54,742 bases of DNA from a virus (IMGVR_UViG_3300044299_001914:1-54742), one strand, 5' to 3'. Shown: positions 16,640 through 50,458, counted from the stretch's first letter. Program-made: numbers and translations. The notes: generated by a model not told the origin, from the letters alone.

Positions 16640-17389
16640 TTAATCATTTTGCATACAAAAAATGCCACATTCAAAATTATAACTTTTAAGATCACGGCCT
16701 TTTGCGTCAACTGGTAGATCTTGCAACATTATTCTTTCACCCTTATAACGAACTAGCTTTGCACCTAACTTATTAGATGTCTTAACTCTTTGCTCAAAAA
16801 CACTTGGAAAAGTTTTTCTTACTAGATTCCAATATGTAGGTGAAGTTGCTTTTACACACCCAACACAGTTAGCGTTAGGAAAACCCAATGCATAGATCTC
16901 TGGCAGTTTTATACCTTCCTGCAACAAAATATCAAAACATCCCTGCTTTGTTATGCCCTCATCTATTAAAACAGGCAAAAGATTGTCTCCTTGCGTCTCT
17001 TTAAATTTAGCAGCCCGTTTCTTTTCATCAAAAGTAAAACCAAGAACAATATAATCGGTGTCATGGCGTAGTTCCCAATATCTTCTAGCGTTCTTTTTTA
17101 AATGTAAAGTGCATGGCGCACCAAAATTACTCGACATAAAAGCTGTTTTTTGCCAAACAGTCTCACAAGATTGATCTGGAAACTTAGGATTAATAGCATA
17201 TTCTATTTTCACACCTAGCCATTTCTCAACATCTTTTAAGAACCTTCTATTATCTTTATGTTCTTCCCTAATAGGATTGTTGACAACTCTGATTGTGTTG
17301 TCTTGACCATACAACTCTATGGTTTTCTTAGCTGCCACAGCACTTGCAGCACCACAGCTAAACCAGACAGTTATGATTTTACCTTTCAT
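16640..17389 (-). CDS. PAPS-reductase-like PP-loop ATP pyrophosphatase family protein (249 aa)
   Basis: N-terminal KIITVWFSCGAASAVAAK in the position of the PP-loop SGGxDS motif. C-terminal Cys cluster NANCVGCVK ... ECGIFC. ATGA overlap with the methyltransferase gene. Confidence 0.6.
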   Translation of the reverse strand: MKGKIITVWFSCGAASAVAAKKTIELYGQDNTIRVVNNPIREEHKDNRRFLKDVEKWLGVKIEYAINPKFPDQSCETVWQKTAFMSSNFGAPCTLHLKKNARRYWELRHDTDYIVLGFTFDEKKRAAKFKETQGDNLLPVLIDEGITKQGCFDILLQEGIKLPEIYALGFPNANCVGCVKATSPTYWNLVRKTFPSVFEQRVKTSNKLGAKLVRYKGERIMLQDLPVDAKGRDLKSYNFECGIFCMQND

Positions 17390-34332: not shown

Positions 34333-36227
34333 CTTTTACCATCTGGTTTTATGTCTATCCTCGTGGCTCCTAATCTCCATCCTATTGATAAATTACCATT
34401 GTTAGATGCATCGTCATCAGATTCAAAACGCAAAGCTATTTGTCTTGAACGACTACGCACAAAGACTTGTTGAGTTGTTGCTGATATGGCATTTGTAGAA
34501 TTTGTGGTAAGAGAGTCGCCTGGAAAGTTTCTTGTTTTCAAAACAATGTTTACATTACCGTTGTTATCATCTTGTATAAATTTGTAATCTGGTATTATTC
34601 TTTTCAAAAAGCTAAATTGGTCGCCATCACCTATATCCATATCAGAGCTTTCTATAAACACATTTGTCATAGGAGATCCATCATCATCAAAACCTATTTC
34701 CTGTTTAAATAGATAACTGTTACCAACTGCTCTCGGATAATTTTCTATGCCAGAATCAAGCCAAGCTGTTCTAACTAATTGCCCATAAAACCATAAATTT
34801 TCTACATAATTATAGATTACATATCTATCTATTTCACTAGATGAGCTTGAACAATAGAACCACCCTATTTCACTTTTATCTTTTATGGTGAAAGCATGTA
34901 TTTTAAAAGATTGTGATAGGTTAATATCGTTAAAAACATAGTTATGCACTGAACAAGGTAAGGTTTGCACAGATCCGTTGTAGACATAAAAATTGTTGTA
35001 GCTCATCCAAAAAACGCCACTAGGGGCTGTTGTAGCAGCTTTTGGCCCTATAAGACCAGTTCCTTCGTTGATAAGGTTTATACCAAAAGTAAAGGGCGGC
35101 CCTATGAACTGCATACTGTAAAGAGCAGTATCTGTCCAAATTAAAGTTTCTTGTCTTGCTTTAACACCACCAATAATCGAAGAGCCGCTTGACAACCTCA
35201 ATGAACCTGCAGTGTTCGTTGTCAAGGGCTCAAAATCTAACTCATTTTCTTGATCACTAAAAGCCACTAACATAGGATCTATCGTCCCTGTTCTGGAGGA
35301 TCCAGATATAGGATCTGCACCTAAAACAATCAAATGTCTATCTTTTTCTGATGTTAAGACTTGTAATGCTTTTGTTGGCACTAAATTTGCACCAGATATA
35401 GCTGAAAGTTCAACAGCTCTTGTCGATAAACCACCAGATTCTAGCCATCTAAAAATACCACCGTTTCTCTGATTTATAATCAAATTTTCACCAAAGTTGT
35501 CATGTGTCCATAAACGCAATTGGTTTGTGTCTGATAAAGTTGCAGCTTGTCCAAACGCTCCTATACCCCATCCATTAGCACCCCAACCTGTACTAGGCAT
35601 ATAAATATCTAAACCAACATTAACTTGATATGTACCAACGACTGAAGAACCACCATTACCGCTATCAGAAGAGTTAGCCGTAACTGTTGTTCCGTCAGTG
35701 TCTTTTGCTTCAATTGTATAACTGTTTGTGTTAACTATGGTAGCTATTTGATACTCTTGATTAAGAACTGTAGCTGTAATATTGCCACCAAGCGAAGATG
35801 CACCACTAAAAGTCACAAAATCATTCTTCACTGCACCATGAGCAGTATCGGTCACTGTAATCGTAGCATCGCCATTACTAGCAGAAAAAGTCACATCACC
35901 TGCCGATGTGGTTAATCTAATCGGTGTGATATCATTAAAAGACCCACCTGACTCTATGTAATACTTAAGATGGCTACCTAATCCTAGGTATTTAGCTCCC
36001 TCTAATGATATCCAAGGATGTAATGCTCTTACTGTGCCTAAGTATGTATTAGATGTAAGTTTCTCCCAACCTCCAAACTTTTCTGGCCTACCTTTACGAA
36101 ACCTAACTAAATTACAGTCAAACCAACCGCCTTCATTATCATATGCGGTGCCCTCTCTATTTATTCCTGGTCTAAATGTAATCTTTTGTAAAGGCATATT
36201 AGATGTGATGCCACTCTTTGCCTTCAA
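34329..36227 (-). CDS. Putative tail / host-interaction structural protein (632 aa)
   Basis: Large beta-rich S/T/G/N ORF immediately downstream of the endolysin gene in the late operon. No enzymatic motif. Confidence 0.45.
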   Translation of the reverse strand: MKAKSGITSNMPLQKITFRPGINREGTAYDNEGGWFDCNLVRFRKGRPEKFGGWEKLTSNTYLGTVRALHPWISLEGAKYLGLGSHLKYYIESGGSFNDITPIRLTTSAGDVTFSASNGDATITVTDTAHGAVKNDFVTFSGASSLGGNITATVLNQEYQIATIVNTNSYTIEAKDTDGTTVTANSSDSGNGGSSVVGTYQVNVGLDIYMPSTGWGANGWGIGAFGQAATLSDTNQLRLWTHDNFGENLIINQRNGGIFRWLESGGLSTRAVELSAISGANLVPTKALQVLTSEKDRHLIVLGADPISGSSRTGTIDPMLVAFSDQENELDFEPLTTNTAGSLRLSSGSSIIGGVKARQETLIWTDTALYSMQFIGPPFTFGINLINEGTGLIGPKAATTAPSGVFWMSYNNFYVYNGSVQTLPCSVHNYVFNDINLSQSFKIHAFTIKDKSEIGWFYCSSSSSEIDRYVIYNYVENLWFYGQLVRTAWLDSGIENYPRAVGNSYLFKQEIGFDDDGSPMTNVFIESSDMDIGDGDQFSFLKRIIPDYKFIQDDNNGNVNIVLKTRNFPGDSLTTNSTNAISATTQQVFVRSRSRQIALRFESDDDASNNGNLSIGWRLGATRIDIKPDGKR

Positions 36228-36642
36228 ACAACAAAGACTCTGCTAGTCTTCTGCGCTCTAACCCCTCTAAAACTTTTCCGTTTGCTTTGTTCCATCTACG
36301 CATTTGATGTGGAGCTTCTTCTTTCTTGTTTTCATTTAATACTTTCAGCAGAGTGCTATTGTTTAGATTTGTTGGCCCCAAATTATAAGTCCATGCAACC
36401 AAAGCATCAAACTCATTTTGCGATAATGGTACATGAACTGCATTACTTACATAAGCACCATATACAGGAAGCTCTTCGTGTAACCACTCATCAGCTTGCT
36501 CCTGTGTACAAGTATCACCTTTTTTTACATTTTTAGTTCTACCGTATCCTATAGTCCAAACACCTGCACTGCATTTGTATGCCTCTAGCTCACACCCTTC
36601 AAATTTTTTTATTAAACTTGTGCCTTCTTGTGAAATTTGCAT
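36199..36642 (-). CDS. Endolysin, GH24 lysozyme (147 aa from the internal Met; the ORF extends to 36693)
   Basis: LIKKFEGCELEAYKCSAGVWTIGYGRT is the GH24 catalytic N-terminus. GAGGAGGAG lies 5 nt upstream of the ATG at 36642, which abuts the o-spanin stop. Confidence 0.85.
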   Translation of the reverse strand: MQISQEGTSLIKKFEGCELEAYKCSAGVWTIGYGRTKNVKKGDTCTQEQADEWLHEELPVYGAYVSNAVHVPLSQNEFDALVAWTYNLGPTNLNNSTLLKVLNENKKEEAPHQMRRWNKANGKVLEGLERRRLAESLLFEGKEWHHI

Positions 36643-36643
36643 A

Positions 36644-37027
36644 TTACTCCTCCTCTTTTGTCGTAGTAACTTCCCTATAATACACAACAACATCTTTTAA
36701 TTCACTTATATAGCGTTTAATTTCTTGCATGTTATATGCCATAACTTCGTAATCTGGCACTGTCATAGCTAGAAAAACAAGCTCTCCTTCTTGATTTTCT
36801 ATTATTGCAAACTGTTCTTCAAAATTTTCGGGTGTAATAGTAAGCCATCTAACCTCTCTAAGAGATATTTCTCTTGGCATAACTGGTTGTACAATTACCC
36901 TTTCTAAGGGTTTTGCGGTAACTTCTATTTGTTTAGTTGGAATCAGGCTGCAACTGCAAGCCATCATCAAGATCATCAACAGTGATGCTGATTTGCTCGA
37001 TATCTTCCATAATGTGTTTTGTACCAT
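36644..37027 (-). CDS. o-spanin (outer-membrane lipoprotein; 127 aa)
   Basis: Signal peptide with lipobox LMMAC|S. The gene starts inside the 3' end of the i-spanin gene (95-nt overlap), an overlapped spanin architecture next to the endolysin. Confidence 0.65.
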   Translation of the reverse strand: MVQNTLWKISSKSASLLMILMMACSCSLIPTKQIEVTAKPLERVIVQPVMPREISLREVRWLTITPENFEEQFAIIENQEGELVFLAMTVPDYEVMAYNMQEIKRYISELKDVVVYYREVTTTKEEE

Positions 37028-37331
37028 TATTTATCTTCCTTTGCATTTCAACTGGATCAGCTATGATTTTTGCACTTAACTGATAGTTTTGTATAAATTC
37101 TGTGTATCTTAACAACTCTCTTTGTGCTGCTTGACTTTTTTTTGATAACTCACTCATTTGTTGTGTTTGCAAGTCAAAATCGTTTTGTAGCGCTGTGATT
37201 GCTTCTTCTTGCGTTGCTATTGCACCCTCTAGCGCCTGATTATTTGCACTTAAAACCTTATTTTGATTGTATAAATAATAAGATGTAAAGCCTAAGGTAA
37301 GTATGATTGCTAATAAAAATTGTTGCATCAA
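36933..37331 (-). CDS. i-spanin (132 aa)
   Basis: N-terminal TM helix FLLAIILTLGFTSYYLY followed by Q/E/L-rich coiled coil, upstream of the o-spanin and endolysin. Confidence 0.65.
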   Translation of the reverse strand: MMQQFLLAIILTLGFTSYYLYNQNKVLSANNQALEGAIATQEEAITALQNDFDLQTQQMSELSKKSQAAQRELLRYTEFIQNYQLSAKIIADPVEMQRKINNGTKHIMEDIEQISITVDDLDDGLQLQPDSN

Positions 37332-37555
37332 GCGTCCTCAATAATGTAATTTAAGCCAGAAACACTTCTATACTCTACCACTTTGTCATTTACATCTCTA
37401 AACTTAAGATGTTTTTCTTTTTGTATTATTATTTTTTTTGAAATGTATGTTTTATCGTCTGAATCTCCATATTCTTTGTTGAAGGACACAGTAATTTTGT
37501 ACCTAGTAGAAAAATACTCACAGATCCAAATATATAATTTTTTAAAGTATTGCAT
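37328..37555 (-). CDS. Hypothetical protein (75 aa)
   Basis: ORF with an ATGA overlap to the i-spanin gene. Confidence 0.5.
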   Translation of the reverse strand: MQYFKKLYIWICEYFSTRYKITVSFNKEYGDSDDKTYISKKIIIQKEKHLKFRDVNDKVVEYRSVSGLNYIIEDA

Positions 37556-37734
37556 TATACAAATTTAGATAAAACTATAGATACTAAGATAAAAGGGTAG
37601 ACAGCCCATATCATGTTTTCTAATTTATCAAAACGTGCTGACCCATCTTCTAATCTTTGTTCTATATTTTTGTATCTTATAGAACATTCTTTTTCATGTG
37701 TTTCTATTTTGTTTAGTGCTTCTTGCGTACTCAT
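37555..37734 (-). CDS. Small tail-anchored membrane protein (59 aa; below the ORF-track cutoff)
   Basis: Hand translation gives MSTQEALNKIETHEKECSIRYKNIEQRLEDGSARFDKLENMIWAVYPFILVSIVLSKFV. ATGA overlap with the cyclase stop and TAATG overlap with the next gene. Confidence 0.5.
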   Translation of the reverse strand: MSTQEALNKIETHEKECSIRYKNIEQRLEDGSARFDKLENMIWAVYPFILVSIVLSKFV

Positions 37735-39479
37735 CTTGTTGTATAAATTGCTAAAGAGTGTTTTTTCCCTTTTACTTTTATTGGTTTTAATAATTTTAAC
37801 TCAAAACTACAAGATTTTTTAGTGTTATGACCTATTATTATGTCCACACCCACATCTTTGGTAGCACTTTCAAGTCTTGCTGCAGTATTTACTGCATCTC
37901 CTATTGCACTATAATCAAAACGTGTTTCACTACCCATATTACCTATTATGGCTTCTCCAGAATTTATGCCTATACCTATGTCTATTCCTAAATTGGATTG
38001 CTCCATGTCTGCCTTTATTTTCTGCGCTGCTAGTATGGCTTTATTCTCATGATCTTGTAGGTCTATTGGTGCGTTAAAAATAGCCATCATTGCATCACCT
38101 ATATATTTATCAACCATACCCCCATACTCTTTCACTGCATCTGCTTGTATTGTTAGGGCTTTGTTCATAATTCTAGTAACTTCTTCTGGCTCTAGCTTTT
38201 CTGATAAACTTGTAAAGCCTCGTACATCTGTAAATAAAAAGGTGCAATACTTTCTTTCACCACCTAGCTTTAGTAAGTTTGGAGTTTTTTGCAAAATTGC
38301 CACTTGTCTCGGGTCAAGATAGTGCTCAAACTGTTTTTTTATCTGTTGTCTAAGTTTGTATTGTTCTCTGAAGCGTAAATAGAAAGCAGTAGATCCTGCA
38401 ATGAATTGTGATATTAACGACCATGTTACATCTATAAGAAGGCTTTTTTGTATCAAATAATAGCCTAAAGTGCCCGTAGAGAGCATAATTGTTAAACCTA
38501 ATGTAATACCTAGGGTTATACCAAAACGGATTAATACAAGCCAAATTAGAGTCACTGTGAGCAAATATATTAGTATCTCAACGGCTAAAGAGTAATCAGG
38601 TATGTATGGACTATCTTGTATTAGAATTGATTCTGCTAAGGCTGCCTGTATTTTATGTGGCTCTAACAGACCAACAGGCGTAGCAATTTGTGGCATGACA
38701 CCTGCAGCAGTAACTCCAATTACAACAAATCTACCATTTACATCCATCTCCTCAAGATCTGTTTGTGGCGTGTCTACCCAACTTATCCATTTACGACCTA
38801 GACTATCTGTTTTGACTGGCGGTATGCCTCTTATTGATATTTCTTGTATACCATTATCATTGGTTTTTATAATGTAAGTTTTTATGCCAAACAAAGATTT
38901 ATAGATCTGTGTGCCAAAACTAGGTATCCAATCGTTATTAGGAGTTCGTACAAGCAATGGTATTCTTCTGACGAGCTGATCTATGTCAGTGGGAGCAATG
39001 GCCAAACCTTCGTATGAGTTTTGAGTAAGTAGAAGCAGGTTCTCCTTTACTCCCGTAGTCATTATACCACCTTTATCTTCACCTACAACAACAGTTCCAG
39101 GTGTTGACGGGTACACACCTTTGCCGTCTTCAAACATAGCAATGACTGAAGGTGCGTATCCCAATGATCTACCAAAGTCTTCATCTCCACCCATTCTGTC
39201 AGGCTGTGGAAAAGATATTGCCCAACCAACTCCAACAGCACCACGACCTAAAATTTCTAGGTTGATTTCTGCTAATCTTTGTCGTGGCAACGGCCAACCA
39301 CCTTCTTGTTCAACATTATCTTCAGTAATATTAAGAATCACAAAATTACCTGATGGGTCATAGTTTTTGACTAAAGCATCAAATGTTCTAAGTTTTATAA
39401 TTTCGGTTGGTGTGCTTTGAAATATAAGAGGTAGTGATAATAGTAATAACAAAGATAAATAAATTTTATATTTCATCAA
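37731..39479 (-). CDS. CHASE2-domain membrane sensor fused to a class III adenylate cyclase (582 aa)
   Basis: Signal/TM, ~280-aa extracytoplasmic region, then a 3-TM block (LAVEILIYLLTV...FIAGSTAFYL). The cyclase core is FLFTDVRGFT, VDKYIGDAMMAIF, GINSGEAIIGNMG, FDYSAIGDAVNTAARLES. Confidence 0.85.
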   Translation of the reverse strand: MMKYKIYLSLLLLLSLPLIFQSTPTEIIKLRTFDALVKNYDPSGNFVILNITEDNVEQEGGWPLPRQRLAEINLEILGRGAVGVGWAISFPQPDRMGGDEDFGRSLGYAPSVIAMFEDGKGVYPSTPGTVVVGEDKGGIMTTGVKENLLLLTQNSYEGLAIAPTDIDQLVRRIPLLVRTPNNDWIPSFGTQIYKSLFGIKTYIIKTNDNGIQEISIRGIPPVKTDSLGRKWISWVDTPQTDLEEMDVNGRFVVIGVTAAGVMPQIATPVGLLEPHKIQAALAESILIQDSPYIPDYSLAVEILIYLLTVTLIWLVLIRFGITLGITLGLTIMLSTGTLGYYLIQKSLLIDVTWSLISQFIAGSTAFYLRFREQYKLRQQIKKQFEHYLDPRQVAILQKTPNLLKLGGERKYCTFLFTDVRGFTSLSEKLEPEEVTRIMNKALTIQADAVKEYGGMVDKYIGDAMMAIFNAPIDLQDHENKAILAAQKIKADMEQSNLGIDIGIGINSGEAIIGNMGSETRFDYSAIGDAVNTAARLESATKDVGVDIIIGHNTKKSCSFELKLLKPIKVKGKKHSLAIYTTR

Positions 39480-40639
39480 CCACTCTGTTTTATCGTAATA
39501 ACACTACTGCTACCACCATTAATCTTGATAGTCTTTGAAACACCATCTTGAATTAAAATTACGGTGTAACTTGCAGATACATCTAAATCTAGTCTAGCAG
39601 TGTTATTTACAGATCTTATTAGGGTAAATCTATCGCCATCTATAAAAGAAATTATCTGAGTTTCTGTATCTTGACCAAACTTAGTTCCTGCTATGGCAAC
39701 TGATGTAACATCTTGTTGTAACTGATCCTCTTCTTCAGCAATCTCTAAAGCATCTAAAACATCTAATAAATCTTCAAGAAAATTTACATCAAGGTAATTT
39801 ATGTCTAATTCTGTAAACTCTAGATCTGCCTCATTGTCTAAAAAGTCCTCATCTAAATAATCTATATCTAAGTCATTAAAATCTAAAAAATCATTTGTAT
39901 TAAGAATAACTTCTTCAGCTTGCATTTCTACTGGCTCTGGCGGACTTACAATAAGCATGTTGTCAATAATATCTAAAGTTAGATCTAAAATTACTGGCTT
40001 ACTAGGTGCACTTTCAAATACGCTAACTGTAGTAGCTTGAAAAGGTTGATTTAGTATGACGCTGCCCGTTGCAGTGGTTACCTCTATTTCTCCACTGGAA
40101 AGACCAAGTGCATCTGGTAGCAATATTATTAGGGATGCTCCTAACTCATTTACTGTGGTTGTAAAGTCAGTGCCACGAATGGCTATATTCGCTGTGGGTG
40201 TTTTTAACGAGATGTTTTGTTTATCTATTCTATTTAAGTTACCTGTTATAAATCTTGTGGTACCTAGCGCAAAGGTAAGCGCCATCTTTGATTTAGATGG
40301 ATCTGGGTCATAAATATATTCGTCTATTACAAGTTGTGAGTGTTCTGTAAGTTTTACTTGGCTATCATCGAGAAAAGTTATAGCCATGCGCCCATTGTTA
40401 GTAATGGCCTCATCGTTATTTTGTATTACAAAATCTATACTAGCGTCATAAGGTATATCTCTTACAACGCTAGCTGAACCAGAAAGTTCAGAGATGTCAC
40501 CAATGTTAACAGCTTGTGCTTGTACCTTGGTCGTTTTGGATAACGCAAATATTGCTATTAGAAGTGTTGCTAATAATCTTAAGGTAATCCCTTGCCAAAG
40601 TAGAAGATTGTGTAACATCAATCGTGTTTGAACTGCCAT
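39476..40639 (-). CDS. Secreted FecR-domain protein with an acidic D/L-repeat linker (387 aa)
   Basis: Signal peptide LRLLATLLIAIFALSKTTKVQAQA. FecR-like SGSASVVRD..NNDEAITNNGRMAITFLDDSQVKLTEHSQLVIDEY. ATGA overlap with the cyclase gene. Confidence 0.7.
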   Translation of the reverse strand: MAVQTRLMLHNLLLWQGITLRLLATLLIAIFALSKTTKVQAQAVNIGDISELSGSASVVRDIPYDASIDFVIQNNDEAITNNGRMAITFLDDSQVKLTEHSQLVIDEYIYDPDPSKSKMALTFALGTTRFITGNLNRIDKQNISLKTPTANIAIRGTDFTTTVNELGASLIILLPDALGLSSGEIEVTTATGSVILNQPFQATTVSVFESAPSKPVILDLTLDIIDNMLIVSPPEPVEMQAEEVILNTNDFLDFNDLDIDYLDEDFLDNEADLEFTELDINYLDVNFLEDLLDVLDALEIAEEEDQLQQDVTSVAIAGTKFGQDTETQIISFIDGDRFTLIRSVNNTARLDLDVSASYTVILIQDGVSKTIKINGGSSSVITIKQSG

Positions 40640-41231
40640 CTAAATCAAGATAAAAATAACCACTGTCAGCAGATGTGGTGCCACCGTACCCGCTACCACT
40701 AAAATTTAATGTATTACTGCTACCATTTACATCGACATAGTTGATTGCATTTGCATAATCTATATCAAAATCAAACTCATTACTGCCACCAGTAACAATC
40801 CAATCTAGATCAAGATAAGACGCATCATCATCCTCAGCCACTGCTAAATCAAAGGTGTTACTTGATCCAGTGACATTTATATTCATATTAATATAATCTG
40901 AGTCAATAAGGCCTGTGCTATCTACAAGTATGTCAAAGACATTACTGTCACCTGTAAATTCAAAAAAGCCTGTAAAATTATCACCATCAATAGCATCAGA
41001 TCTAAATTTATTACTTGCACCTATTTGGTTTATGTCAAGTATCATTGACACACCATCAAGATCTAATGCAGTCATAGTGCCAGATGTAGCACTTGTACCA
41101 CCAATAAGGTTAGATCCACCTTGTTGCTCTAAATCTATGGTTGCAGAGTTTCCAGTTTGGTTTACATAAATTTCATTGTCCGCAACAACAGAAAGAGACA
41201 TAAATAAAAAAATGTTAATTAGTTTCTTCAT
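40506..41231 (-). CDS. Secreted curlin-like repeat protein (241 aa)
   Basis: Sec signal MKKLINIFLFMSLSVVA. VNQTGNSATIDLEQQGGSN fits the curlin Q-x-G-x-x-N-x-A-x3-Q pattern. About 8 degenerate xxGxSNxFDxxV repeats follow. Adjacent to csgG/csgF. Confidence 0.6.
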   Translation of the reverse strand: MKKLINIFLFMSLSVVADNEIYVNQTGNSATIDLEQQGGSNLIGGTSATSGTMTALDLDGVSMILDINQIGASNKFRSDAIDGDNFTGFFEFTGDSNVFDILVDSTGLIDSDYINMNINVTGSSNTFDLAVAEDDDASYLDLDWIVTGGSNEFDFDIDYANAINYVDVNGSSNTLNFSGSGYGGTTSADSGYFYLDLDGSSNTIDVTQSSTLARDYLKIISNTSNSNICVIQNDQGTSTSC

Positions 41232-42036
41232 ATTTCCAATACCCTCTTGTATTTCCTACGTTTATTATTTCTAAGACTGCACCTTCTATAGCTTTCATTA
41301 AAGCTATGGTTGTGCTTTCGTTGCGGGTGGCACCCGTTTCTATTTCAACCAACTCTGTGCCCATCTCTATGAATCTGAACACATCTTGAGATTGGCCATA
41401 ACTATAGATAGTTTTTTGTGACATGACCTCAATCAAAATTTCACCTGTAGCTACTGATACCATACGCAGACTAACACTTACGCTATCTTCTCGGTACTGC
41501 AAACTAGAGCCTATGCCCAAATATCTTGCGCCTAGTCCACCTGTAACTAAGTTACTATCATACGATACAACTGCACCTTCAAGCAAGACACCAGCAAAAA
41601 GCAGCGGCCCTAGAGCCTGGCTTTCACCAAGTTGTTCTCTTGTAGATCTAATTAGTTGTCTTTCTTTTGTAAGGTTATCAAGACCAACTCTCTCTACAAC
41701 ACGAAAGAAATTACCATTTGATGCATGTTTTAAAGACCTAATTAAAAGCGTGTGTGGTGCTTGTGTGATTGCAGATGAAAATAAAGCAAACTCACTATTG
41801 CTTTTTCTTTGTCCTGTTTGATCTGTAAAGGCAGTAGGATACACAGCAACGACAGGTTTGACTGCGGGAGCTGGTATATATGCTAGTTCGTCAGACTGCA
41901 ACGAATAAATACTATAATCGTGTAATCCTTTACTTTGGTATCTATCTGGTCTTGTATCTTTTACAACTTCTAGTATTGAACAACTAGAAAGAGAAATCAC
42001 CAAGAGGCAGTTCAATAGTCGTGGTAGAACCGTCAT
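41215..42036 (-). CDS. csgG: CsgG-family outer-membrane curli secretion channel lipoprotein (273 aa)
   Basis: Lipobox LVISLSSC|S. VAVYPTAFTDQTGQRKSN...FSSAITQAPHTLLIRSLKHASNGNFFRVVERVGLDNLTKERQLIRS matches the conserved CsgG core. Confidence 0.8.
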   Translation of the reverse strand: MTVLPRLLNCLLVISLSSCSILEVVKDTRPDRYQSKGLHDYSIYSLQSDELAYIPAPAVKPVVAVYPTAFTDQTGQRKSNSEFALFSSAITQAPHTLLIRSLKHASNGNFFRVVERVGLDNLTKERQLIRSTREQLGESQALGPLLFAGVLLEGAVVSYDSNLVTGGLGARYLGIGSSLQYREDSVSVSLRMVSVATGEILIEVMSQKTIYSYGQSQDVFRFIEMGTELVEIETGATRNESTTIALMKAIEGAVLEIINVGNTRGYWKYEETN

Positions 42037-42472
42037 TTGAGTTAAAAATAGTAAGAATTATCATACCGTCTTCAATCTTGTAAGATATTATATTACCTTC
42101 AAGTTCAAACGTGCCTTCAGTAGATTGTGTTTCGCCAAACATATTTTCTACAATCTGTCTGGATATTTGTGCGTAGATACGGCTTTCTAAGTTTCTAATA
42201 AATCTTGCAAGAGTTGTGTTCTCAGCATCTCTTTCTAATTCTTCTTGTAAAGCTTTGATCTCCTCTTTTATAGTCATCTTACGCATATGTTCTTGGTTTT
42301 CTATTGTTAAGTAATGAGAGCTGGTATTGATGCCACTAAAAGATGGAGACTTAAATTTAAAAGTTATAGTATCTGCTTGTGCACTTTGTATGAAGCCAAA
42401 AGTAAAAAGCATCATGCCGCACAAAATACTAAGTGCGTATAAATTATCTTTGTTTTTTTCTTTTTGCATCAT
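41984..42472 (-). CDS. csgF: CsgF-family curli assembly component (162 aa)
   Basis: Signal peptide ending SAQA, then the mature N-terminus TFKFKSPSFSGINTSS, which matches the CsgF F-x-F-x-N/S-P-x-F-G-G constriction motif. Adjacent to csgG. Confidence 0.7.
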   Translation of the reverse strand: MMQKEKNKDNLYALSILCGMMLFTFGFIQSAQADTITFKFKSPSFSGINTSSHYLTIENQEHMRKMTIKEEIKALQEELERDAENTTLARFIRNLESRIYAQISRQIVENMFGETQSTEGTFELEGNIISYKIEDGMIILTIFNSNDGSTTTIELPLGDFSF

Positions 42473-42701
42473 CTTGTTCTTTAAGTTTCACTACTGTATC
42501 AACTTTCTCTTTTAATCGTATCATATCTTGATCCAATAGGCGAAGTTGATCTGTTAACCTTATTATGGTCGTTTTCATTTCACTTACTGATGGATCTATA
42601 GTTTTAGTGATGGTTTGCCATACATAAAAAACAAAATATCCTAACCCTATAACCATAACAGTTGGAAAGCCAAACTTTTGCACCAGTACAACTATATCCA
42701 T
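42444..42701 (-). CDS. Membrane protein, N-terminal TM plus coiled coil (85 aa); holin/antiholin-class candidate
   Basis: GFPTVMVIGLGYFVFYVW TM helix, then a heptad-like region and a basic tail. Paralogous in architecture to the upstream gene. Confidence 0.4.
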   Translation of the reverse strand: MDIVVLVQKFGFPTVMVIGLGYFVFYVWQTITKTIDPSVSEMKTTIIRLTDQLRLLDQDMIRLKEKVDTVVKLKEQDDAKRKKQR

Positions 42702-42997
42702 TAGTCACGCCTTGCGTCTATCTTGCCATCTTCTACAAAATTCTCTGCTCTAGCAATCCTATCAAGATCTGGTGGTATGTTAAGTGCACTAGAAACCACA
42801 GTATCTATTCTAATAATATCGTTGTTCATTATAGAAGCACGGGTAATAAGCATTTTGGTAATGCCTTGCACTGACTGTATATCTGAAACAAGGTTGTTCA
42901 TAAGCTGTCTTATGATTAAAAATATGAAATAGCCCATAATCAAACCACTAGCTATTGGTAGTCCTACCTCGCTTATCAAGCTTATAGCTTGATTCAT
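42701..42997 (-). CDS. Membrane protein, N-terminal TM plus coiled coil (98 aa); holin/antiholin-class candidate
   Basis: GLPIASGLIMGYFIFLII TM helix, aligned by eye with the TM of 42444..42701. 1-nt overlaps on both sides. Confidence 0.4.
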   Translation of the reverse strand: MNQAISLISEVGLPIASGLIMGYFIFLIIRQLMNNLVSDIQSVQGITKMLITRASIMNNDIIRIDTVVSSALNIPPDLDRIARAENFVEDGKIDARRD

Positions 42998-43383
42998 TAT
43001 TTATCTTCGCCTTTGAAACTCTTAGATGCGCCAGATGTACCTGCATAAAGACCAAACCAAGCTGCACCTGCACCAACAATAATTGATATAAGTCCAGATT
43101 GTTCAAATGTAGGGCTCTCTAGTGCCATAAACCACATTGTTGAATAGTAGAGTAAAAATATATAAACGCTTAAAAATGCACGTGGAAATATTCTCCATGC
43201 ATCAACTGCTTGTGCTAAATGAATCCACTTTTGATGTGGATTAACATTGCTTACATCCTCAAGTTCTCTTATTTTATCTTTTAGATCAGAAATTTCTCGC
43301 ATCATATCCATGAACTTGTTAAGGTCCATTTCGACTTCGTTTCTATCCATATCTCCGCTAAATTGTCCTGGATTCATATTCAT
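42997..43383 (-). CDS. Multi-TM small membrane protein, holin candidate (128 aa from the TAATG-coupled start; the ORF opens at 43398)
   Basis: C-terminal half has 2-3 hydrophobic helices (AFLSVYIFLLYYSTMWFMAL, LISIIVGAGAAWFGLYAG) and a charged tail. Confidence 0.45.
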   Translation of the reverse strand: MNMNPGQFSGDMDRNEVEMDLNKFMDMMREISDLKDKIRELEDVSNVNPHQKWIHLAQAVDAWRIFPRAFLSVYIFLLYYSTMWFMALESPTFEQSGLISIIVGAGAAWFGLYAGTSGASKSFKGEDK

Positions 43384-43763
43384 TAGTAATCTCCCCAAAC
43401 TTTGGTTTTTTTGCCACCGTCATAAGCAACTGCATGGCCTTCTTTAATTAATATTTGACAAATATCTTTGCCGTCATCTGTATAAGGTATGCCTAGTATA
43501 CGGCCATATTTACCTTTACCCAATGATTTTACTTTTATATGCCCTGTGCAAAGTTCTTTTAATCGAGCTTTTGCAGCCAAACCTAGTACTTTTTCAGCTT
43601 TATCTCTAGTTCTTGATTCTGGTGTATCAATGCCTGCTAGTCTCACTCTTTGTTTATGAAGCTTTACATCAAACCCAAGATCAAGACAACAATCAAAAGT
43701 GTCTCCATCAACTATTCTTTCTAGAATTGCATTATAAACAAATGCATCAGGTGCTTTAGGCAT
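43383..43763 (-). CDS. Staphylococcal-nuclease-like (SNase/thermonuclease fold) nuclease (126 aa)
   Basis: VERIVDGDTFDC...QRVRLAGIDTPESRT...GKYGRILG matches the SNase Ca-binding and catalytic motifs (DGDT, R-L-x-GID-PE). Confidence 0.75.
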   Translation of the reverse strand: MPKAPDAFVYNAILERIVDGDTFDCCLDLGFDVKLHKQRVRLAGIDTPESRTRDKAEKVLGLAAKARLKELCTGHIKVKSLGKGKYGRILGIPYTDDGKDICQILIKEGHAVAYDGGKKTKVWGDY

Positions 43764-48774: not shown

Positions 48775-49449
48775 TTATGAAACCGATGACCTCAAAGAAT
48801 CGTAACGGTATTCATCTCTTCTCCCCCTAGCTTCTGCAAGATTTTTCAACCTTGATATTTCCATCATAAAGCGTTGCTCATATTGTTGTTGCATGTCGCT
48901 TTCCCCTTTTAAAAATATATTTGCCTCTACTAAACACCCATACAATAAAGCGTTTCTAGCATTAGTAGACAGCCATGTGCCCGTAGTATCTGTAACTAAT
49001 GAAGTTGGTTTGAAAAGGTAATGTAACTCAACACTGTAATTGGAATCTGGCACAGGACTTACTATTAATGTAGAGCCATTATTTGTCGCTGTAGAGAGCT
49101 CTTTATCAAAATCAGCATAATACTTGGGTAAATCCCTAAGCGTTGTATCTGTTGGATCTACGATGTATTCACGCATAAAAGATGGATGTTTTTTATCTAA
49201 ATAATGATAATCACCATTGCCATCAATAACTGCGAGTGAAAAACTCATTTGAAAGTCTGACGGTGTTGTTAAATATGTGTTGCCTGCGGTTAGAGAGCCT
49301 GTTACATTTTTTCTAAAAAAGTCAAACTGCACTAATTCAAATATGCGTTCTTCAGCGTTTTTTATAAAGTCATCTAAGCTGTTTACAAAGGTAGTTTCTT
49401 CGTTTTCAACATAGTTTTGTATTAATGTCTTGAGTTCGGCTAATGTCAT
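48775..49449 (-). CDS. Head-tail joining / structural protein candidate (224 aa)
   Basis: ORF in the neck/tail block, with an ATGA overlap to the upstream gene. Confidence 0.4.
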   Translation of the reverse strand: MTLAELKTLIQNYVENEETTFVNSLDDFIKNAEERIFELVQFDFFRKNVTGSLTAGNTYLTTPSDFQMSFSLAVIDGNGDYHYLDKKHPSFMREYIVDPTDTTLRDLPKYYADFDKELSTATNNGSTLIVSPVPDSNYSVELHYLFKPTSLVTDTTGTWLSTNARNALLYGCLVEANIFLKGESDMQQQYEQRFMMEISRLKNLAEARGRRDEYRYDSLRSSVS

Positions 49450-49787
49450 GTGATAACTATTGTAACCTCACCTACACTACCTGTCATCTTGGAAACTGTA
49501 AAGTTTGCAGGTAAAGTTGATGGGTTCATGTAGTCTGGTCTAAAGATATTTGAATTTACAACAACAACAAACCCTTCACCTTCTTCTGCGTCATTATTAG
49601 GACGTGGTTTGTATAAAGCCTCAGGATCCGCAGTAGCAGTGAGTGGCTCTAATTGTGGATGTTTTGGTTCATAACAATGTGGACAAACCTTAGCACCATT
49701 CCATTCTTCTTTTAACTCTAGAAGCTTATATTCAAAACCACATCTATCACATAATGCTTTTGCAAATTTACCTAAAGCGTATGCCAT
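49446..49787 (-). CDS. Zinc-ribbon protein (113 aa)
   Basis: CDRCGFEY...VCPHCYEPKHPQ gives a CxxC-n21-CxxC ribbon. Confidence 0.5.
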   Translation of the reverse strand: MAYALGKFAKALCDRCGFEYKLLELKEEWNGAKVCPHCYEPKHPQLEPLTATADPEALYKPRPNNDAEEGEGFVVVVNSNIFRPDYMNPSTLPANFTVSKMTGSVGEVTIVIT

Positions 49788-50458
49788 TAGTTCATCCTTA
49801 TGTCAGGTCTTACTCTAAATGATGCTCTATCCTCATCTTGATCTGCAGCTCTTCTAAATTCTTCCTCATACATTGCTTTAAGTTGTGGTGTAAGTTGTGG
49901 ATTCTTCTTCATAGACAAGTAGTACGCTAAACCAGCAACAAAACAAGGATAAAACCTAAACGGCATGTCCATAGTATTAGTTGCAGCATCTGCATCATCC
50001 ATTCTTACAAGCTTGTTAAAAACTAAAATATCCGTGCTATTTTCTGGTGCAGGCCATATTTTTAAAGCAGGTGTAGTTAATTTATCAAAAAAGAACTGTG
50101 AGGGTCTTGCTTTTGTTTCTTTATTTGGAATGTTTAGATATTCAGATCTACTAATTCTGTTCATGCTAATATCAGTTTGCTCTTGGTTTACAGTCCTACG
50201 CACCACTACATCTAATACATCAATTACATTAGCATTTAATGAATAACTAGAAGTGCCTTCAGTAACAGTTTGTGTGGCTTGTTCTATAGTCCATTGATTG
50301 AGACCTCTATTAGCCCATTCAGCTAACATAAGATTTACACTTCTAATAGCAGTTTTAAGATCATATCCTGTTCTTAATTCAGCACCACACCTCTCGTAGG
50401 CCTCTTCTATAAACTCTGTTACATTCGGTTCAAAATTTGTGCTGCCAGATAATGCCAT
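49787..50458 (-). CDS. Head-tail adaptor-type structural protein candidate (223 aa)
   Basis: ORF with 1-nt overlaps on both sides, in the neck position. No enzymatic motif. Confidence 0.4.
   Translation of the reverse strand: MALSGSTNFEPNVTEFIEEAYERCGAELRTGYDLKTAIRSVNLMLAEWANRGLNQWTIEQATQTVTEGTSSYSLNANVIDVLDVVVRRTVNQEQTDISMNRISRSEYLNIPNKETKARPSQFFFDKLTTPALKIWPAPENSTDILVFNKLVRMDDADAATNTMDMPFRFYPCFVAGLAYYLSMKKNPQLTPQLKAMYEEEFRRAADQDEDRASFRVRPDIRMN

What the first reader, a model, noticed from the sequence alone, without database searches (positions are those of the whole stretch)
37731..42472. Phage-borne envelope module inside the lysis cassette: CsgF, CsgG, curlin-repeat protein, FecR-domain protein and CHASE2 adenylate cyclase
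Five consecutive co-directional genes sit between holin-like membrane genes (42444..43383) and the spanin/endolysin genes (36199..37331).
- They are linked by overlaps of 4 to 134 nt.
- They encode an OM secretion channel lipoprotein (CsgG core motif), its cap/adaptor (CsgF N-terminal FKFKSPSFSG), a Sec-dependent curlin-like repeat substrate, a secreted FecR-domain protein, and an inner-membrane CHASE2 sensor fused to a class III cyclase.
- All five carry export signals or TM segments, so the set spans every compartment of a Gram-negative envelope.
- From memory, FecR-domain genes are frequent neighbours of CHASE2 genes in bacteria, and csgGF with a curlin is a minimal amyloid export set. I do not recall the two being fused into one operon, or carried in a lytic-looking phage lysis region.
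- Possible roles (inference only): surface remodelling or superinfection exclusion, cAMP reprogramming of the host in response to a periplasmic cue, lysis timing, or use of the CsgG pore for export.
Basis: partly seen in the sequence, partly recalled or inferred. Interest (0 to 1): 0.92.

Follow-up and report, generated by a model that had tools for sequence, protein, structure and literature searches.

The report
Known pelagiphage curli-secretion and cyclase module
The five genes are real and mostly correctly identified, but this outer-membrane secretion channel plus envelope-sensing adenylate cyclase cassette is already published for abundant marine SAR11-type phages and is common in ocean viromes; only its function remains untested.

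Summary
Five overlapping minus-strand genes encode CsgF, CsgG, a secreted beta-solenoid repeat protein, a periplasmic FecR-domain protein and a CHASE2-class III adenylate cyclase. Four assignments pass Pfam thresholds. The curlin assignment does not.

The novelty claim fails. The window is an HTVC023P-type podophage. Wittmers et al. 2022 (PMC9599517) described this gene order in that lineage and in pelagimyophages. HTVC008M (2013) and Melnitz (2022) carry it annotated. I found 406 IMG/VR contigs with a CsgG relative, and all module parts co-occur in every fetched locus with enough flank.

Points I did not find in the three papers I searched:
- The cyclase has a CHASE2 sensor, and FecR+CHASE2 is a recurrent bacterial sensing pair, also present in SAR11 genomes. 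FecR here is probably a sensor partner, not an iron regulator.
- The published 'histidine kinases' are 85-98 aa single-pass membrane proteins with no kinase domain. They are module members, not this phage's holins.
- The podophage module sits in a variable cargo slot between a putative holin and p75-spanins-endolysin. Module-less relatives carry other secreted proteins there.

No experimental study of its function is in the searched library.

The parts
42701..42997 (-). Small single-pass membrane protein, 'B-type' (98 aa). It is the first gene of the conserved module. It corresponds by position to the 'histidine kinase' of Wittmers et al., but it has no kinase domain.
   Evidence: N-terminal TM helix. 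phrog_18771, unknown function, 6.6e-23. No Pfam hit at E<=0.1. Orthologues lie directly upstream of csgF in HTVC008M, Melnitz and myophage contigs. The family has at least 7,999 clusters; the 120 listed are short (82-182 aa) with no Pfam domain.
42444..42701 (-). Small single-pass membrane protein, 'A-type' (85 aa). It is a paralogue of the gene above and the second gene of the module.
   Evidence: phrog_18771 1.7e-24. No Pfam hit. The alignment shows two orthologous subfamilies kept in the order B then A ahead of csgF in podophages and myophages.
41984..42472 (-). CsgF homologue (162 aa): secreted adaptor/plug of the CsgG channel.
   Evidence: Pfam CsgF 2.7e-19, 70 bits against a cut-off of 25.8. 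The N-terminal motif DTITFKFKSPSFSG aligns with E. coli GTMTFQFRNPNFGG of 6L7A. Signal peptide present.
41215..42036 (-). CsgG homologue (273 aa): outer-membrane lipoprotein secretion channel.
   Evidence: Pfam CsgG 1.9e-47. Aligns with E. coli CsgG structures at 1.6e-42 over residues 49-270. Lipobox LSSC is read from the sequence. 52% identical to HTVC008M CsgG.
40506..41231 (-). Secreted beta-solenoid repeat protein (241 aa) in the csgA/B position. It is the presumed channel substrate. Homology to curlin is not established.
   Evidence: Seven G-x-S-N turn motifs and a signal peptide. The AF2 model has pLDDT 76 and is an all-beta stack of strand-turn-strand units. Curlin_rpt E=0.067, below cut-off; 4 of 10 family members hit it, best 8.6e-6. 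hhalign against E. coli CsgA gives probability 3%. Foldseek finds no match at E<=1e-3.
39476..40639 (-). Periplasmic FecR-domain protein (387 aa). It has an N-terminal hydrophobic helix, a FecR domain, an acidic LD-rich repeat region and a C-terminal domain found only in the viral proteins.
   Evidence: Pfam FecR 2.1e-9, residues 80-167. phrog_37870 2e-70. Only residues ~20-230 have bacterial homologues; the C-terminal-half HMM hits none of 76 bacterial loci. The AF2 model failed, pLDDT 35.5.
37731..39479 (-). Inner-membrane CHASE2 sensor fused to a class III (IIIb-like) adenylate cyclase (582 aa).
   Evidence: Pfam CHASE2 6.7e-24 and Guanylate_cyc 1.4e-19. Best PDB relatives are Cya2, CyaB, bPAC and CyaC. 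Catalytic motifs FTDVRGFT, KYIGD and GDAVNTAAR are intact, with Ser at the second specificity position; 56 of 68 viral homologue ORFs keep them.
42997..43398 (-). Backbone gene, not part of the module: 133-aa protein with two C-terminal TM helices. It is a candidate holin and marks the upstream edge of the cargo slot.
   Evidence: phrog_10198, unknown function, 2.1e-20. Retained in the module-less relative L243. The 2-TM part is 55% identical to unannotated 83-aa ORFs of T5-like Vibrio phages. The holin role is inference only.
36199..37734 (-). Backbone lysis block at the downstream edge of the slot: 59-aa C-terminal-TM protein (37555..37734), 75-aa protein (37328..37555), i-spanin (36933..37331), o-spanin (36644..37027) and lysozyme-type endolysin (36199..36693).
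   Evidence: PHROGs endolysin 1.4e-59 and Rz-like spanins 1.2e-12 and 2.8e-11. The same order occurs in relatives with and without the module.

Best explanation
This is an instance of the already described 'viral T8SS/curli' auxiliary module of marine pelagiphages. Here it sits in an uncultivated HTVC023P-type podophage. The module has seven genes, not five: two small single-pass inner-membrane proteins, CsgF, CsgG, a secreted beta-solenoid repeat protein, a periplasmic FecR-domain protein and a CHASE2-adenylate cyclase.

Shown:
- The domain identities.
- The fixed gene order in two phage families.
- Complete co-occurrence of all parts in the fetched loci.
- Intact cyclase catalytic residues.
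- Placement in a gene chain without gaps that runs into the spanin and endolysin genes.

Inferred mechanism:
- During late infection the phage installs a CsgG-CsgF channel in the host outer membrane and exports the beta-solenoid protein to the cell surface. The likely result is surface remodelling: fibres, aggregation or exclusion of other phages.
- The FecR-domain protein and the CHASE2 domain form a periplasmic sensing pair, as they do in bacteria. This pair reports an envelope state to the cytoplasm as cAMP. The state could be channel or fibre assembly, or an external cue.
- The phage encodes no detected cAMP receptor, so cAMP would act through host factors.
- The position next to the lysis genes reflects a variable late-expressed cargo slot, not membership of the lysis machinery.
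For: Identity:
- Pfam hits above threshold for CsgG, CsgF, FecR, CHASE2 and cyclase.
- CsgG aligns full-length with E. coli CsgG, and the CsgF plug motif is conserved.

Lineage:
- TerL is 56-61% identical to 023Pt_psg01, HTVC027P and HTVC023P.

Prior description:
- The same order is annotated in HTVC008M and Melnitz and described in PMC9599517, PMC7029224 and PMC9004378.

Conservation:
- 406 IMG/VR contigs encode a CsgG relative.
- Among the fetched loci: curlin-like and FecR 71/71, CHASE2+cyclase 48/48, CsgF and at least one small TM protein 64/64.
- The same order holds in divergent myophage contigs.

Sensor pair:
- 15 of 76 bacterial FecR loci have a CHASE2 gene within 10 kb, 8 of them with a cyclase domain. 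SAR11 genomes have CHASE2-PP2C plus FecR.
- A CRP gene lies between FecR and the CHASE2-cyclase in L149.
- The Burkholderia and P. aeruginosa FecR+CHASE2-kinase operons are in the literature.

Active cyclase:
- Catalytic motifs are intact and conserved.

Cargo slot:
- Module-less relatives L243 and L239 have other secreted or membrane proteins between tm133 and p75-spanins.

Long residence:
- No compositional anomaly across the module.
Against: - No experiment exists for any step.
- The substrate's homology to curlin is not established, so fibre formation is conjecture.
- CsgE is not detected, so gating and substrate delivery are unexplained.
- Physical or functional coupling between CsgG/F and FecR/CHASE2 rests only on co-inheritance. 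Most sampled contigs are closely related (CsgG at least 72% identical), so the counts are not independent.
- No bacterial locus combining the two halves was found.
- The FecR C-terminal half could not be modelled.
- No phage cAMP receptor was found among the 20 further ORFs scanned. Whether the host has a suitable receptor was not tested.
Confidence: 0.55

Rival explanations
1. Lysis-timing or outer-membrane permeabilising device, extending Buchholz et al. The ungated CsgG pore, possibly with the small TM proteins acting as holin/antiholin-like factors, conditions the envelope for lysis. FecR/CHASE2/cAMP serves as the timer or as a lysis-inhibition signal.
For: - In every podophage contig with enough flank, the module lies between a 2-TM candidate holin and p75-spanins-endolysin.
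- All genes in that chain overlap or abut by 1-134 nt, and no convincing internal promoter or terminator was found.
- No CsgE gate is detected.
- The lysis-timing idea has already been published for Melnitz.
Against: - In the myophages the module is not next to lysis genes. It lies between gp32 and gp2 or tail genes.
- Relatives lacking the module keep the same spanin/endolysin block and carry unrelated secreted cargo in the slot.
- The podophage already has a complete endolysin plus two-component spanin set.
- The small TM proteins match no holin family.
- A roughly 1.3 nm outer-membrane pore (channel diameters quoted in PMC9004378) does not depolarise the inner membrane (established knowledge).
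Confidence: 0.15
2. Two functionally independent cassettes that merely travel together: a minimal T8SS (small TM proteins, CsgF, CsgG, repeat protein) and a separate FecR/CHASE2-adenylate cyclase host-reprogramming unit.
For: - The FecR/CHASE2 pair exists on its own in bacteria, and no CsgG or CsgF was found nearby in 76 loci.
- The FecR-cyclase junction tolerates unrelated insertions: a 149-aa secreted protein, a Dcm-like methyltransferase, and ferredoxin/Fe-S genes.
Against: - Co-occurrence and order are complete in every locus sampled here. This holds across podophage and myophage lineages with only 40-50% protein identity.
- In podophages the FecR gene overlaps the repeat-protein gene by about 131-134 nt.
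- The viral FecR has a virus-specific C-terminal half that no bacterial homologue has. This suggests adaptation to a module-specific partner.
Confidence: 0.15
3. Nutrient or cofactor uptake pore. An ungated CsgG channel raises outer-membrane permeability for small solutes that phage replication needs. FecR/CHASE2 senses the incoming solute.
For: - No CsgE gate is detected.
- The hypothesis appears in PMC7029224 and PMC9599517.
- Fe-S and ferredoxin genes are inserted in the myophage version.
Against: - It does not explain the strictly conserved CsgF and secreted repeat protein.
- The FecR protein lacks the anti-sigma/ECF/TonB-transducer context that defines iron-citrate signalling.
- No transporter genes are present in the module.
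Confidence: 0.07

Closest known systems
T8SS/Curli partner-AMG module of HTVC023P-type podophage pelagiphages (Wittmers et al. 2022, PMC9599517)
   Same: Same phage lineage (TerL 56-61% identical to the type phages). Same gene order: one or two small upstream genes, CsgF, CsgG, repeat protein, FecR, adenylate cyclase.
   Different: - This window lacks the optional second repeat-protein gene.
- The paper labels the small upstream genes histidine kinases, but they have no kinase domain.
- The paper treats FecR as an iron regulator.
- The words CHASE2, holin, spanin and endolysin do not occur in the paper.
Curli operon of pelagimyophage HTVC008M and Methylophilales phage Melnitz (T4-like; KC465899, MZ577097; PMC7029224, PMC9004378)
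   Same: The same seven families in the same order, including both small TM proteins. CsgG is 47-52% identical.
   Different: - The myophage versions have an extra repeat-protein gene or Fe-S/ferredoxin inserts between FecR and the cyclase.
- They lie between replication genes (gp32) and gp2 or tail genes, not next to spanins and endolysin.
Enterobacterial curli system csgBAC-csgDEFG (type VIII secretion)
   Same: CsgG lipoprotein channel and CsgF with a conserved N-terminal plug motif. A Sec-dependent repeat protein is encoded alongside them.
   Different: - No CsgE, CsgC/H or CsgD.
- The repeat protein is not demonstrably homologous to CsgA/B.
- Constriction residues Tyr51 and Asn55 are replaced by Asn and Leu; Phe56 is kept.
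- The module has FecR, CHASE2-AC and two small TM proteins in addition.
Bacterial periplasmic FecR-domain protein + CHASE2 transducer operons (Burkholderia 'BiofilmReg', P. aeruginosa pair, PMC5192318; the SAR11 CHASE2-PP2C/FecR cluster found here)
   Same: A secreted FecR-domain protein encoded next to a membrane protein with a periplasmic CHASE2 domain and a cytoplasmic output. Several bacterial examples have the same cyclase output, and one has an adjacent CRP.
   Different: - The bacterial versions have no CsgG or CsgF nearby (0 of 76 loci).
- Their FecR proteins lack the acidic repeat and C-terminal domain of the viral protein.
- Their outputs vary: kinase, PP2C phosphatase or cyclase.
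FecA-FecR-FecI trans-envelope signalling (a 'works like' comparison only)
   Same: A FecR-domain periplasmic element that could link an outer-membrane protein to an inner-membrane or cytoplasmic output.
   Different: No N-terminal anti-sigma domain, no ECF sigma factor and no TonB-dependent transducer. The output would be cAMP, not sigma-factor release. The module is not a member of this system.

Membership tests
CsgG (PF03783) | Profile match above the curated threshold over the whole domain | tested here: met
   161.8 bits against a cut-off of 20.8, residues 55-269. E. coli CsgG structures match at 1.6e-42.
CsgG (PF03783) | Lipoprotein signal with a lipobox cysteine | tested here: met
   LLVISLSS-C read from the sequence. 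N-terminal hydrophobic segment. No dedicated lipoprotein predictor was run.
CsgG (PF03783) | Constriction-loop residues Tyr51/Asn55/Phe56 of E. coli CsgG | tested here: inconclusive
   In the alignment Phe56 is conserved, Tyr51 is Asn and Asn55 is Leu.
CsgF (PF10614) | Profile match above threshold and the N-terminal CsgG-binding motif | tested here: met
   70.1 bits against a cut-off of 25.8. TFKFKSPSFSG aligns with TFQFRNPNFGG. The NCBIfam equivalog cut-off is not reached (13.9 against 171), so this is a divergent member.
Curlin CsgA/CsgB (PF07012 Curlin_rpt) | Curlin repeat profile above the gathering score | tested here: not met
   13.6 bits against 20.7, E=0.067. NCBIfam CsgB 18.1 bits against 165. 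4 of 10 family members hit, best E 8.6e-6.
Curlin CsgA/CsgB (PF07012 Curlin_rpt) | Detectable sequence or fold similarity to solved CsgA | tested here: not met
   The family profile does not find CsgA in the PDB. hhalign probability is 3% (the CsgA reference was validated). Foldseek finds only generic beta-helices, all with E>1e-3.
Curlin CsgA/CsgB (PF07012 Curlin_rpt) | Sec signal plus a stacked strand-turn-strand repeat architecture | tested here: met
   Signal peptide and seven GxSN turns. AF2 model is an all-beta stack, pLDDT 76.
Canonical curli T8SS operon | Presence of CsgE (periplasmic gate) and the regulator CsgD | tested here: not met
   None of the module or flanking proteins hits CsgE or CsgD in Pfam or NCBIfam. 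The same conclusion is reached in PMC9599517.
FecR domain (PF04773) | Profile match above threshold | tested here: met
   38.2 bits against a cut-off of 24, residues 80-167.
FecR-type anti-sigma iron-citrate regulator | Cytoplasmic anti-sigma N-domain, a partner ECF sigma factor and a TonB-dependent transducer | tested here: not met
   The N-terminus is only a hydrophobic helix. No sigma factor or TonB-dependent receptor is encoded in the module or in related loci.
CHASE2 sensor (PF05226) | Profile match and the topology TM-periplasmic domain-TM cluster | tested here: met
   85.3 bits against a cut-off of 26.3, residues 14-307. Hydrophobic segments at residues 2-24 and about 296-334 and beyond.
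Class III adenylate cyclase (PF00211) | Two metal-binding Asp, substrate Lys, transition-state Asn and Arg | tested here: met
   FTD(416), KYIGD(458) and GDAVNTAAR(527). Ser at the second specificity position matches the class IIIb pattern (established knowledge). 56 of 68 viral homologues keep the motifs. Enzyme activity was not tested.
Histidine kinase (label used for the small upstream genes in PMC9599517) | HisKA/DHp with a phospho-acceptor His plus an HATPase_c catalytic domain | tested here: not met
   The proteins are 85 and 98 aa, with one TM helix and one further helix. No Pfam hit at E<=0.1. None of the 120 listed family members has a Pfam domain or a kinase name.
Pelagiphage T8SS module (Wittmers et al. 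2022) | Conserved order small gene(s)-CsgF-CsgG-repeat protein-FecR-(repeat protein)-AC in an HTVC023P-type or pelagimyophage genome | tested here: met
   Order confirmed. Backbone affiliation confirmed.
Holin (for 42997..43398 and 37555..37734) | Membership of a known holin family, or demonstrated membrane-lesion activity | tested here: inconclusive
   The TM topology is compatible, but only unknown-function PHROGs match, and homologues in Vibrio phages are unannotated.

The most novel reading that the evidence does not exclude
The FecR-domain protein, through its virus-specific acidic repeat and C-terminal domain, docks onto the phage-installed CsgG/CsgF channel or its secreted beta-solenoid product. 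It passes that state to the CHASE2 domain of the cyclase. The seven genes would then form one phage-encoded trans-envelope signalling device that converts an outer-membrane or surface event into cytoplasmic cAMP. This could be used to time lysis or to reprogramme the host, and it may compete with the host's own FecR/CHASE2-PP2C sensor.
Probability: 0.15. Interest if true: 0.75.

Novelty: already known. Interest (0 to 1): 0.3.

Why it matters
The module is abundant in ocean viromes. PMC9599517 reports it at all 65 GOV2.0 stations. It gives streamlined hosts, which lack curli genes according to the cited papers, a secretion channel and a second-messenger enzyme. Its function therefore bears on how phages of the most abundant marine bacteria alter cell surfaces, aggregation and mortality.

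The finding itself adds no new system.
- FecR is a partner of a CHASE2 sensor rather than an iron regulator.
- The 'histidine kinases' are small bitopic membrane proteins.
- The podophage insertion point is a variable cargo slot inside the lysis gene chain.

Tried and rejected
- DNA-level search of the region against isolate phages (blastn) found only the nuclease gene, so no close isolate exists.
- Profile search of the repeat-protein family against PDB sequences, Foldseek of its AF2 model and hhalign against E. coli CsgA all failed to link it to curlin.
- AlphaFold2 of the FecR protein gave mean pLDDT 35.5 and was discarded. The idea that its C-terminal domain replaces CsgE could not be tested.
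- The promoter/terminator scan gave counts at or below the shuffle expectation, so no transcription-unit boundaries could be assigned.
- The Rfam scan found nothing and there are no tRNAs.
- Pfam scans of 20 further window ORFs found no cNMP-binding or CRP protein.
- Searching isolates for tm133 found only unannotated Vibrio phage ORFs, so it gave no holin evidence.
- I considered that the four MAG contigs carrying the whole module (L086-L089) might be a cellular version. I rejected this for L086, L087 and L089, which are phage DNA in bins. L088 remains unresolved.
- I considered that the 0.4-1.7 kb gaps between FecR and the cyclase in some relatives were a second curlin gene. They are a 149-aa secreted protein and a Dcm-like methyltransferase instead.

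Full report
**1. Observation**

ORF listing confirms five co-directional minus-strand genes at the stated coordinates. The overlaps between neighbours are 4, 134, 17 and 53 nt.

Pfam supports four assignments above the curated thresholds:
- CHASE2 (6.7e-24) plus class III cyclase (1.4e-19) in the 582-aa protein.
- FecR (2.1e-9) in the 387-aa protein.
- CsgG (1.9e-47).
- CsgF (2.7e-19).

The fifth assignment, curlin, is weak. Curlin_rpt scores E=0.067, 13.6 bits against a cut-off of 20.7. NCBIfam CsgB scores 18 bits against 165.

All five proteins have N-terminal hydrophobic signals or TM segments. Immediately downstream lie an i-spanin, an o-spanin and a lysozyme-type endolysin. GC content across the module (0.34-0.375) is within the window's range (0.34-0.45).

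**2. What the genome is**

The large terminase is 56-61% identical to those of phage 023Pt_psg01, Pelagibacter phages HTVC027P and HTVC023P, and phage DSL-LC04. The window is therefore an HTVC023P-type podophage.

Near-identical contigs exist in IMG/VR (L006 and L009). Identical proteins occur on marine metagenome contigs of 54.7 and 60.7 kb. No isolate is close at the DNA level.

**3. The module is already known**

A tblastn search with CsgG against isolate phages finds Pelagibacter phage HTVC008M (52%) and the Methylophilales Melnitz phages (47%). Their GenBank annotations show the same order: CsgF, CsgG, curlin-associated protein, FecR or hypothetical protein, a further repeat protein, adenylate/guanylate cyclase.

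Three papers discuss it:
- Zaragoza-Solas et al. 2020 describe a curli cluster widespread in pelagimyophages and propose 'sibling capture' or uptake (PMC7029224).
- Buchholz et al. 2022 model CsgG and CsgF of Melnitz and propose a pinholin- or secretin-like role in lysis timing (PMC9004378).
- Wittmers et al. 2022 describe exactly this arrangement in nine HTVC023P-type podophage genomes and in myophages. [quoted passage not shown] They also report presence at all 65 GOV2.0 stations, transcripts in metatranscriptomes, and an inferred alphaproteobacterial origin with transfer between phage families (PMC9599517).

I found no later or experimental paper in the library.

It is not met for 'experimentally characterised'.

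**4. Independent check of conservation**

A scan of IMG/VR found 406 contigs encoding a CsgG relative. I mapped the window's proteins onto the 80 best loci.

In every contig with enough flank the order is:
- small TM protein(s), CsgF, CsgG, repeat protein, FecR, CHASE2-cyclase;
- then small proteins, i-spanin, o-spanin, sometimes the nuclease, endolysin, and the 632-aa structural protein.

The counts are:
- repeat protein and FecR: 71/71;
- CHASE2 plus cyclase: 48/48;
- CsgF and at least one small TM protein: 64/64.

These contigs are close relatives (CsgG at least 72% identical), so the counts are not independent events. However, the same seven families in the same order recur in the much more divergent myophage loci.

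**5. Three things the published descriptions I searched do not say**

*(a) CHASE2 and FecR form a sensing pair.*

The cyclase carries an N-terminal periplasmic CHASE2 sensor. That word does not occur in any of the three papers.

I scanned one genome per bacterial species with an alignment of viral FecR proteins. This returned 76 genuinely bacterial loci, mostly Alphaproteobacteria, and only the N-terminal FecR domain is homologous in them.
- None has CsgG or CsgF within 10 kb.
- 15 have a CHASE2 gene within 10 kb, eight of them with a cyclase domain.
- SAR11 single-cell genomes carry CHASE2-PP2C phosphatase, a 440-455-aa protein with a weak outer-membrane-barrel hit, and a 191-aa FecR protein.
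- Other loci add TPR proteins (one with a sub-threshold SlipAM match), an OmpA-family protein, or, in L149, a CRP-type cAMP receptor between FecR and the CHASE2-cyclase.
- A FecR-plus-CHASE2-kinase operon that regulates biofilm is described in Burkholderia and P. aeruginosa (PMC5192318).

The viral FecR protein has no anti-sigma domain, and no ECF sigma factor or TonB-dependent transducer is encoded nearby. The 'iron-dependent regulator' reading is therefore unsupported. It is better seen as the periplasmic partner of the CHASE2 sensor.

The cyclase looks active and adenylate-specific:
- Both metal-binding Asp residues, the substrate Lys, and the Asn and Arg of the transition-state motif are intact.
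- Ser or Thr sits at the second specificity position, as in class IIIb enzymes.
- 56 of 68 viral homologue ORFs keep this pattern.

*(b) The 'histidine kinases' are not kinases.*

The two genes directly upstream of csgF (42701..42997 and 42444..42701) encode proteins of 98 and 85 aa. Each has one N-terminal TM helix followed by a single conserved helix.
- They form two orthologous subfamilies, kept in the order B then A ahead of csgF in both podophages and myophages.
- They have no Pfam hit and belong to an unknown-function PHROG.
- The family saturated the search at about 8,000 clusters. The 120 listed are short, 82-182 aa (the longest look like tandem fusions of the two types), without domains, and never named a kinase.
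- They cannot be histidine kinases.
- Because they travel with the module in T4-like phages, they are module components rather than this podophage's own holins.

My mapping of Wittmers' 'HK' onto these genes rests on position and number only. I could not see their figure.

*(c) The podophage module sits in a variable cargo slot.*

A scan anchored on the i-spanin found three relatives without the module. In L243 (a 59.7-kb contig) and L239, the 133-aa 2-TM backbone protein and the p75-spanin-endolysin block are retained. Between them lie three other genes:
- a 379-aa secreted low-complexity protein;
- a 773-838-aa protein with an N-terminal TM or signal segment and an acidic middle region;
- a 114-119-aa protein with a TM helix and a coiled coil.

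In phage DSL-LC04 a holin and an endolysin lie directly upstream of the homologous structural gene. The lysis genes' position is therefore ancestral, and the slot upstream of them takes alternative envelope-directed cargo.

In the myophages the module is nowhere near lysis genes. This weakens the inference that the module is part of the lysis machinery. It remains true that it sits in a gap-free chain of genes that overlap or abut by 1-134 nt and run into the spanins and endolysin, with no convincing internal signals.

**6. The repeat protein**

It has a signal peptide and seven G-x-S-N turn motifs spaced 22-33 residues apart. AlphaFold2 gives an all-beta stack of strand-turn-strand units (mean pLDDT 76).

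The link to curlin is not established:
- Foldseek against the PDB returns only generic beta-helices, none with E<=1e-3. The CsgA fibril entries are not among the top 50.
- A family profile does not find CsgA among PDB sequences.
- hhalign against E. coli CsgA gives probability 3%. The CsgA reference sequence was validated against 8ENQ.
- Four of ten family members reach Curlin_rpt, best E 8.6e-6.

I therefore call it a curlin-like secreted beta-solenoid by position and architecture. Homology is unproven.

**7. CsgG and CsgF**

CsgG aligns with E. coli CsgG over residues 49-270. Phe56 of the constriction is kept, but Tyr51 is Asn and Asn55 is Leu. It has a lipobox (LSSC). The CsgF N-terminal plug motif is conserved. 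No CsgE, CsgC/H or CsgD is present.

**8. Mechanism**

The best-supported reading is a late-expressed auxiliary cassette.
- It installs a CsgG-CsgF outer-membrane channel and exports the beta-solenoid protein.
- A FecR/CHASE2 periplasmic sensing pair drives cAMP synthesis.
- The domain identities, order, co-inheritance and catalytic competence are shown.
- Export, fibre formation, coupling of the two halves and the role of cAMP are inferred.
- No cAMP receptor was found among the 20 further window ORFs scanned. Any signal would therefore act on host factors.

The rivals are a lysis-timing device, two independent cassettes, and an uptake pore. Each is weighed in its own section.

**9. Failures**

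The FecR model was unusable (pLDDT 35.5). Its virus-specific C-terminal half, which has no bacterial homologue, remains uncharacterised. That is the main gap for the most interesting reading, in which FecR bridges CsgG/F and CHASE2.

**10. Verdict**

The finding is real and mostly well annotated, but the system is already described and common. The interest of 0.92 is not justified for the finding as stated, and I score it 0.3. The residual value lies in the three refinements above and in the fact that no experimental study of its function is in the searched library.

Noticed in passing
window 40506..40639; also L006, L009 and most podophage loci: The 5' end of the FecR gene, which encodes its hydrophobic signal or anchor, overlaps the 3' end of the repeat-protein gene by 134 nt in a different frame. 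Podophage relatives keep a ~131-134 nt overlap. In the myophages there is no such overlap: in HTVC008M the two genes are adjacent with a 2-nt gap, and the FecR N-terminus is shorter.
   Followed up: partly
L009 6158..6607; L056 4864..6546; L247 10412..11554: The junction between FecR and the cyclase is an insertion hotspot. Near-identical relatives of the window carry a 149-aa secreted protein there. Other podophages carry a 560-aa Dcm-like cytosine methyltransferase. Myophage contigs carry a 115-aa ORF plus ferredoxin, zf-CHCC and FeS_assembly_P genes. The window has none of these.
   Followed up: partly
L243 3969..7773; L239 11..3140: Module-less relatives carry an alternative cargo in the same slot: a 379-aa secreted Asn/Thr-rich low-complexity protein, a 773-838-aa protein with an N-terminal TM or signal segment and a long acidic Glu-rich region, and a 114-119-aa TM plus coiled-coil protein. 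Function is unknown.
   Followed up: no
L128 6443..10378 (also L107, L122, L129, L130, L135): Pelagibacteraceae single-cell genomes encode, next to an FtsW/RodA-family gene, a CHASE2-SpoIIE (PP2C phosphatase) membrane protein, a 440-455-aa protein with a weak DUF2860 (outer-membrane barrel) hit, and a 191-aa FecR-domain protein. So the presumed host has its own FecR/CHASE2 envelope sensor.
   Followed up: partly
L149 9647..14475: In an alphaproteobacterial MAG a CRP-family gene (cNMP_binding + HTH_Crp_2) lies between the FecR-domain gene and a CHASE2-cyclase gene. Together these form a complete sensor-to-transcription cAMP pathway.
   Followed up: no
window 43383..43763; L008 12386..12763; L247 13940..14258: The staphylococcal-nuclease-like gene changes position among podophages. 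It lies either upstream of the 2-TM protein or between the o-spanin and the endolysin. It also lies just downstream of the module (after gp2) in myophage contigs. This stretch is the only part of the region with DNA-level similarity to cyanophage genomes.
   Followed up: no
L086, L087, L089 (and possibly L088): Contigs deposited as parts of bacterial MAGs (Candidatus Pelagibacter MED605, Parvibaculum, Flavobacteriaceae, Saprospirales) carry the whole phage module. L086 also has TerL, portal, spanins and endolysin. L089 is 94-100% identical (protein level) to myophage contigs. These are phage sequences binned into MAGs.
   Followed up: yes
window 42997..43398: The C-terminal two-TM part of this 133-aa protein is about 55% identical to unannotated 83-aa ORFs in more than 340 T5-like Vibrio phage genomes (Demerecviridae). 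It may be a widespread, unrecognised small membrane protein family and a holin candidate.
   Followed up: partly
window 48775..49449 and 49787..50458: Two tandem paralogues both match the SU10 adaptor protein family (3.9e-26 and 2.5e-13). The window also encodes a 595-aa DNA methyltransferase (17386..19173) and a primase-helicase (22523..24646). No tRNA gene and no Rfam family were detected anywhere in the window.
   Followed up: no
window 40506..41231 (C-terminus): The repeat protein ends in a conserved ...ICxIQNDQGTSTSC tail with two cysteines in the podophage versions. Both myophage homologues in the alignment lack this tail.
   Followed up: no
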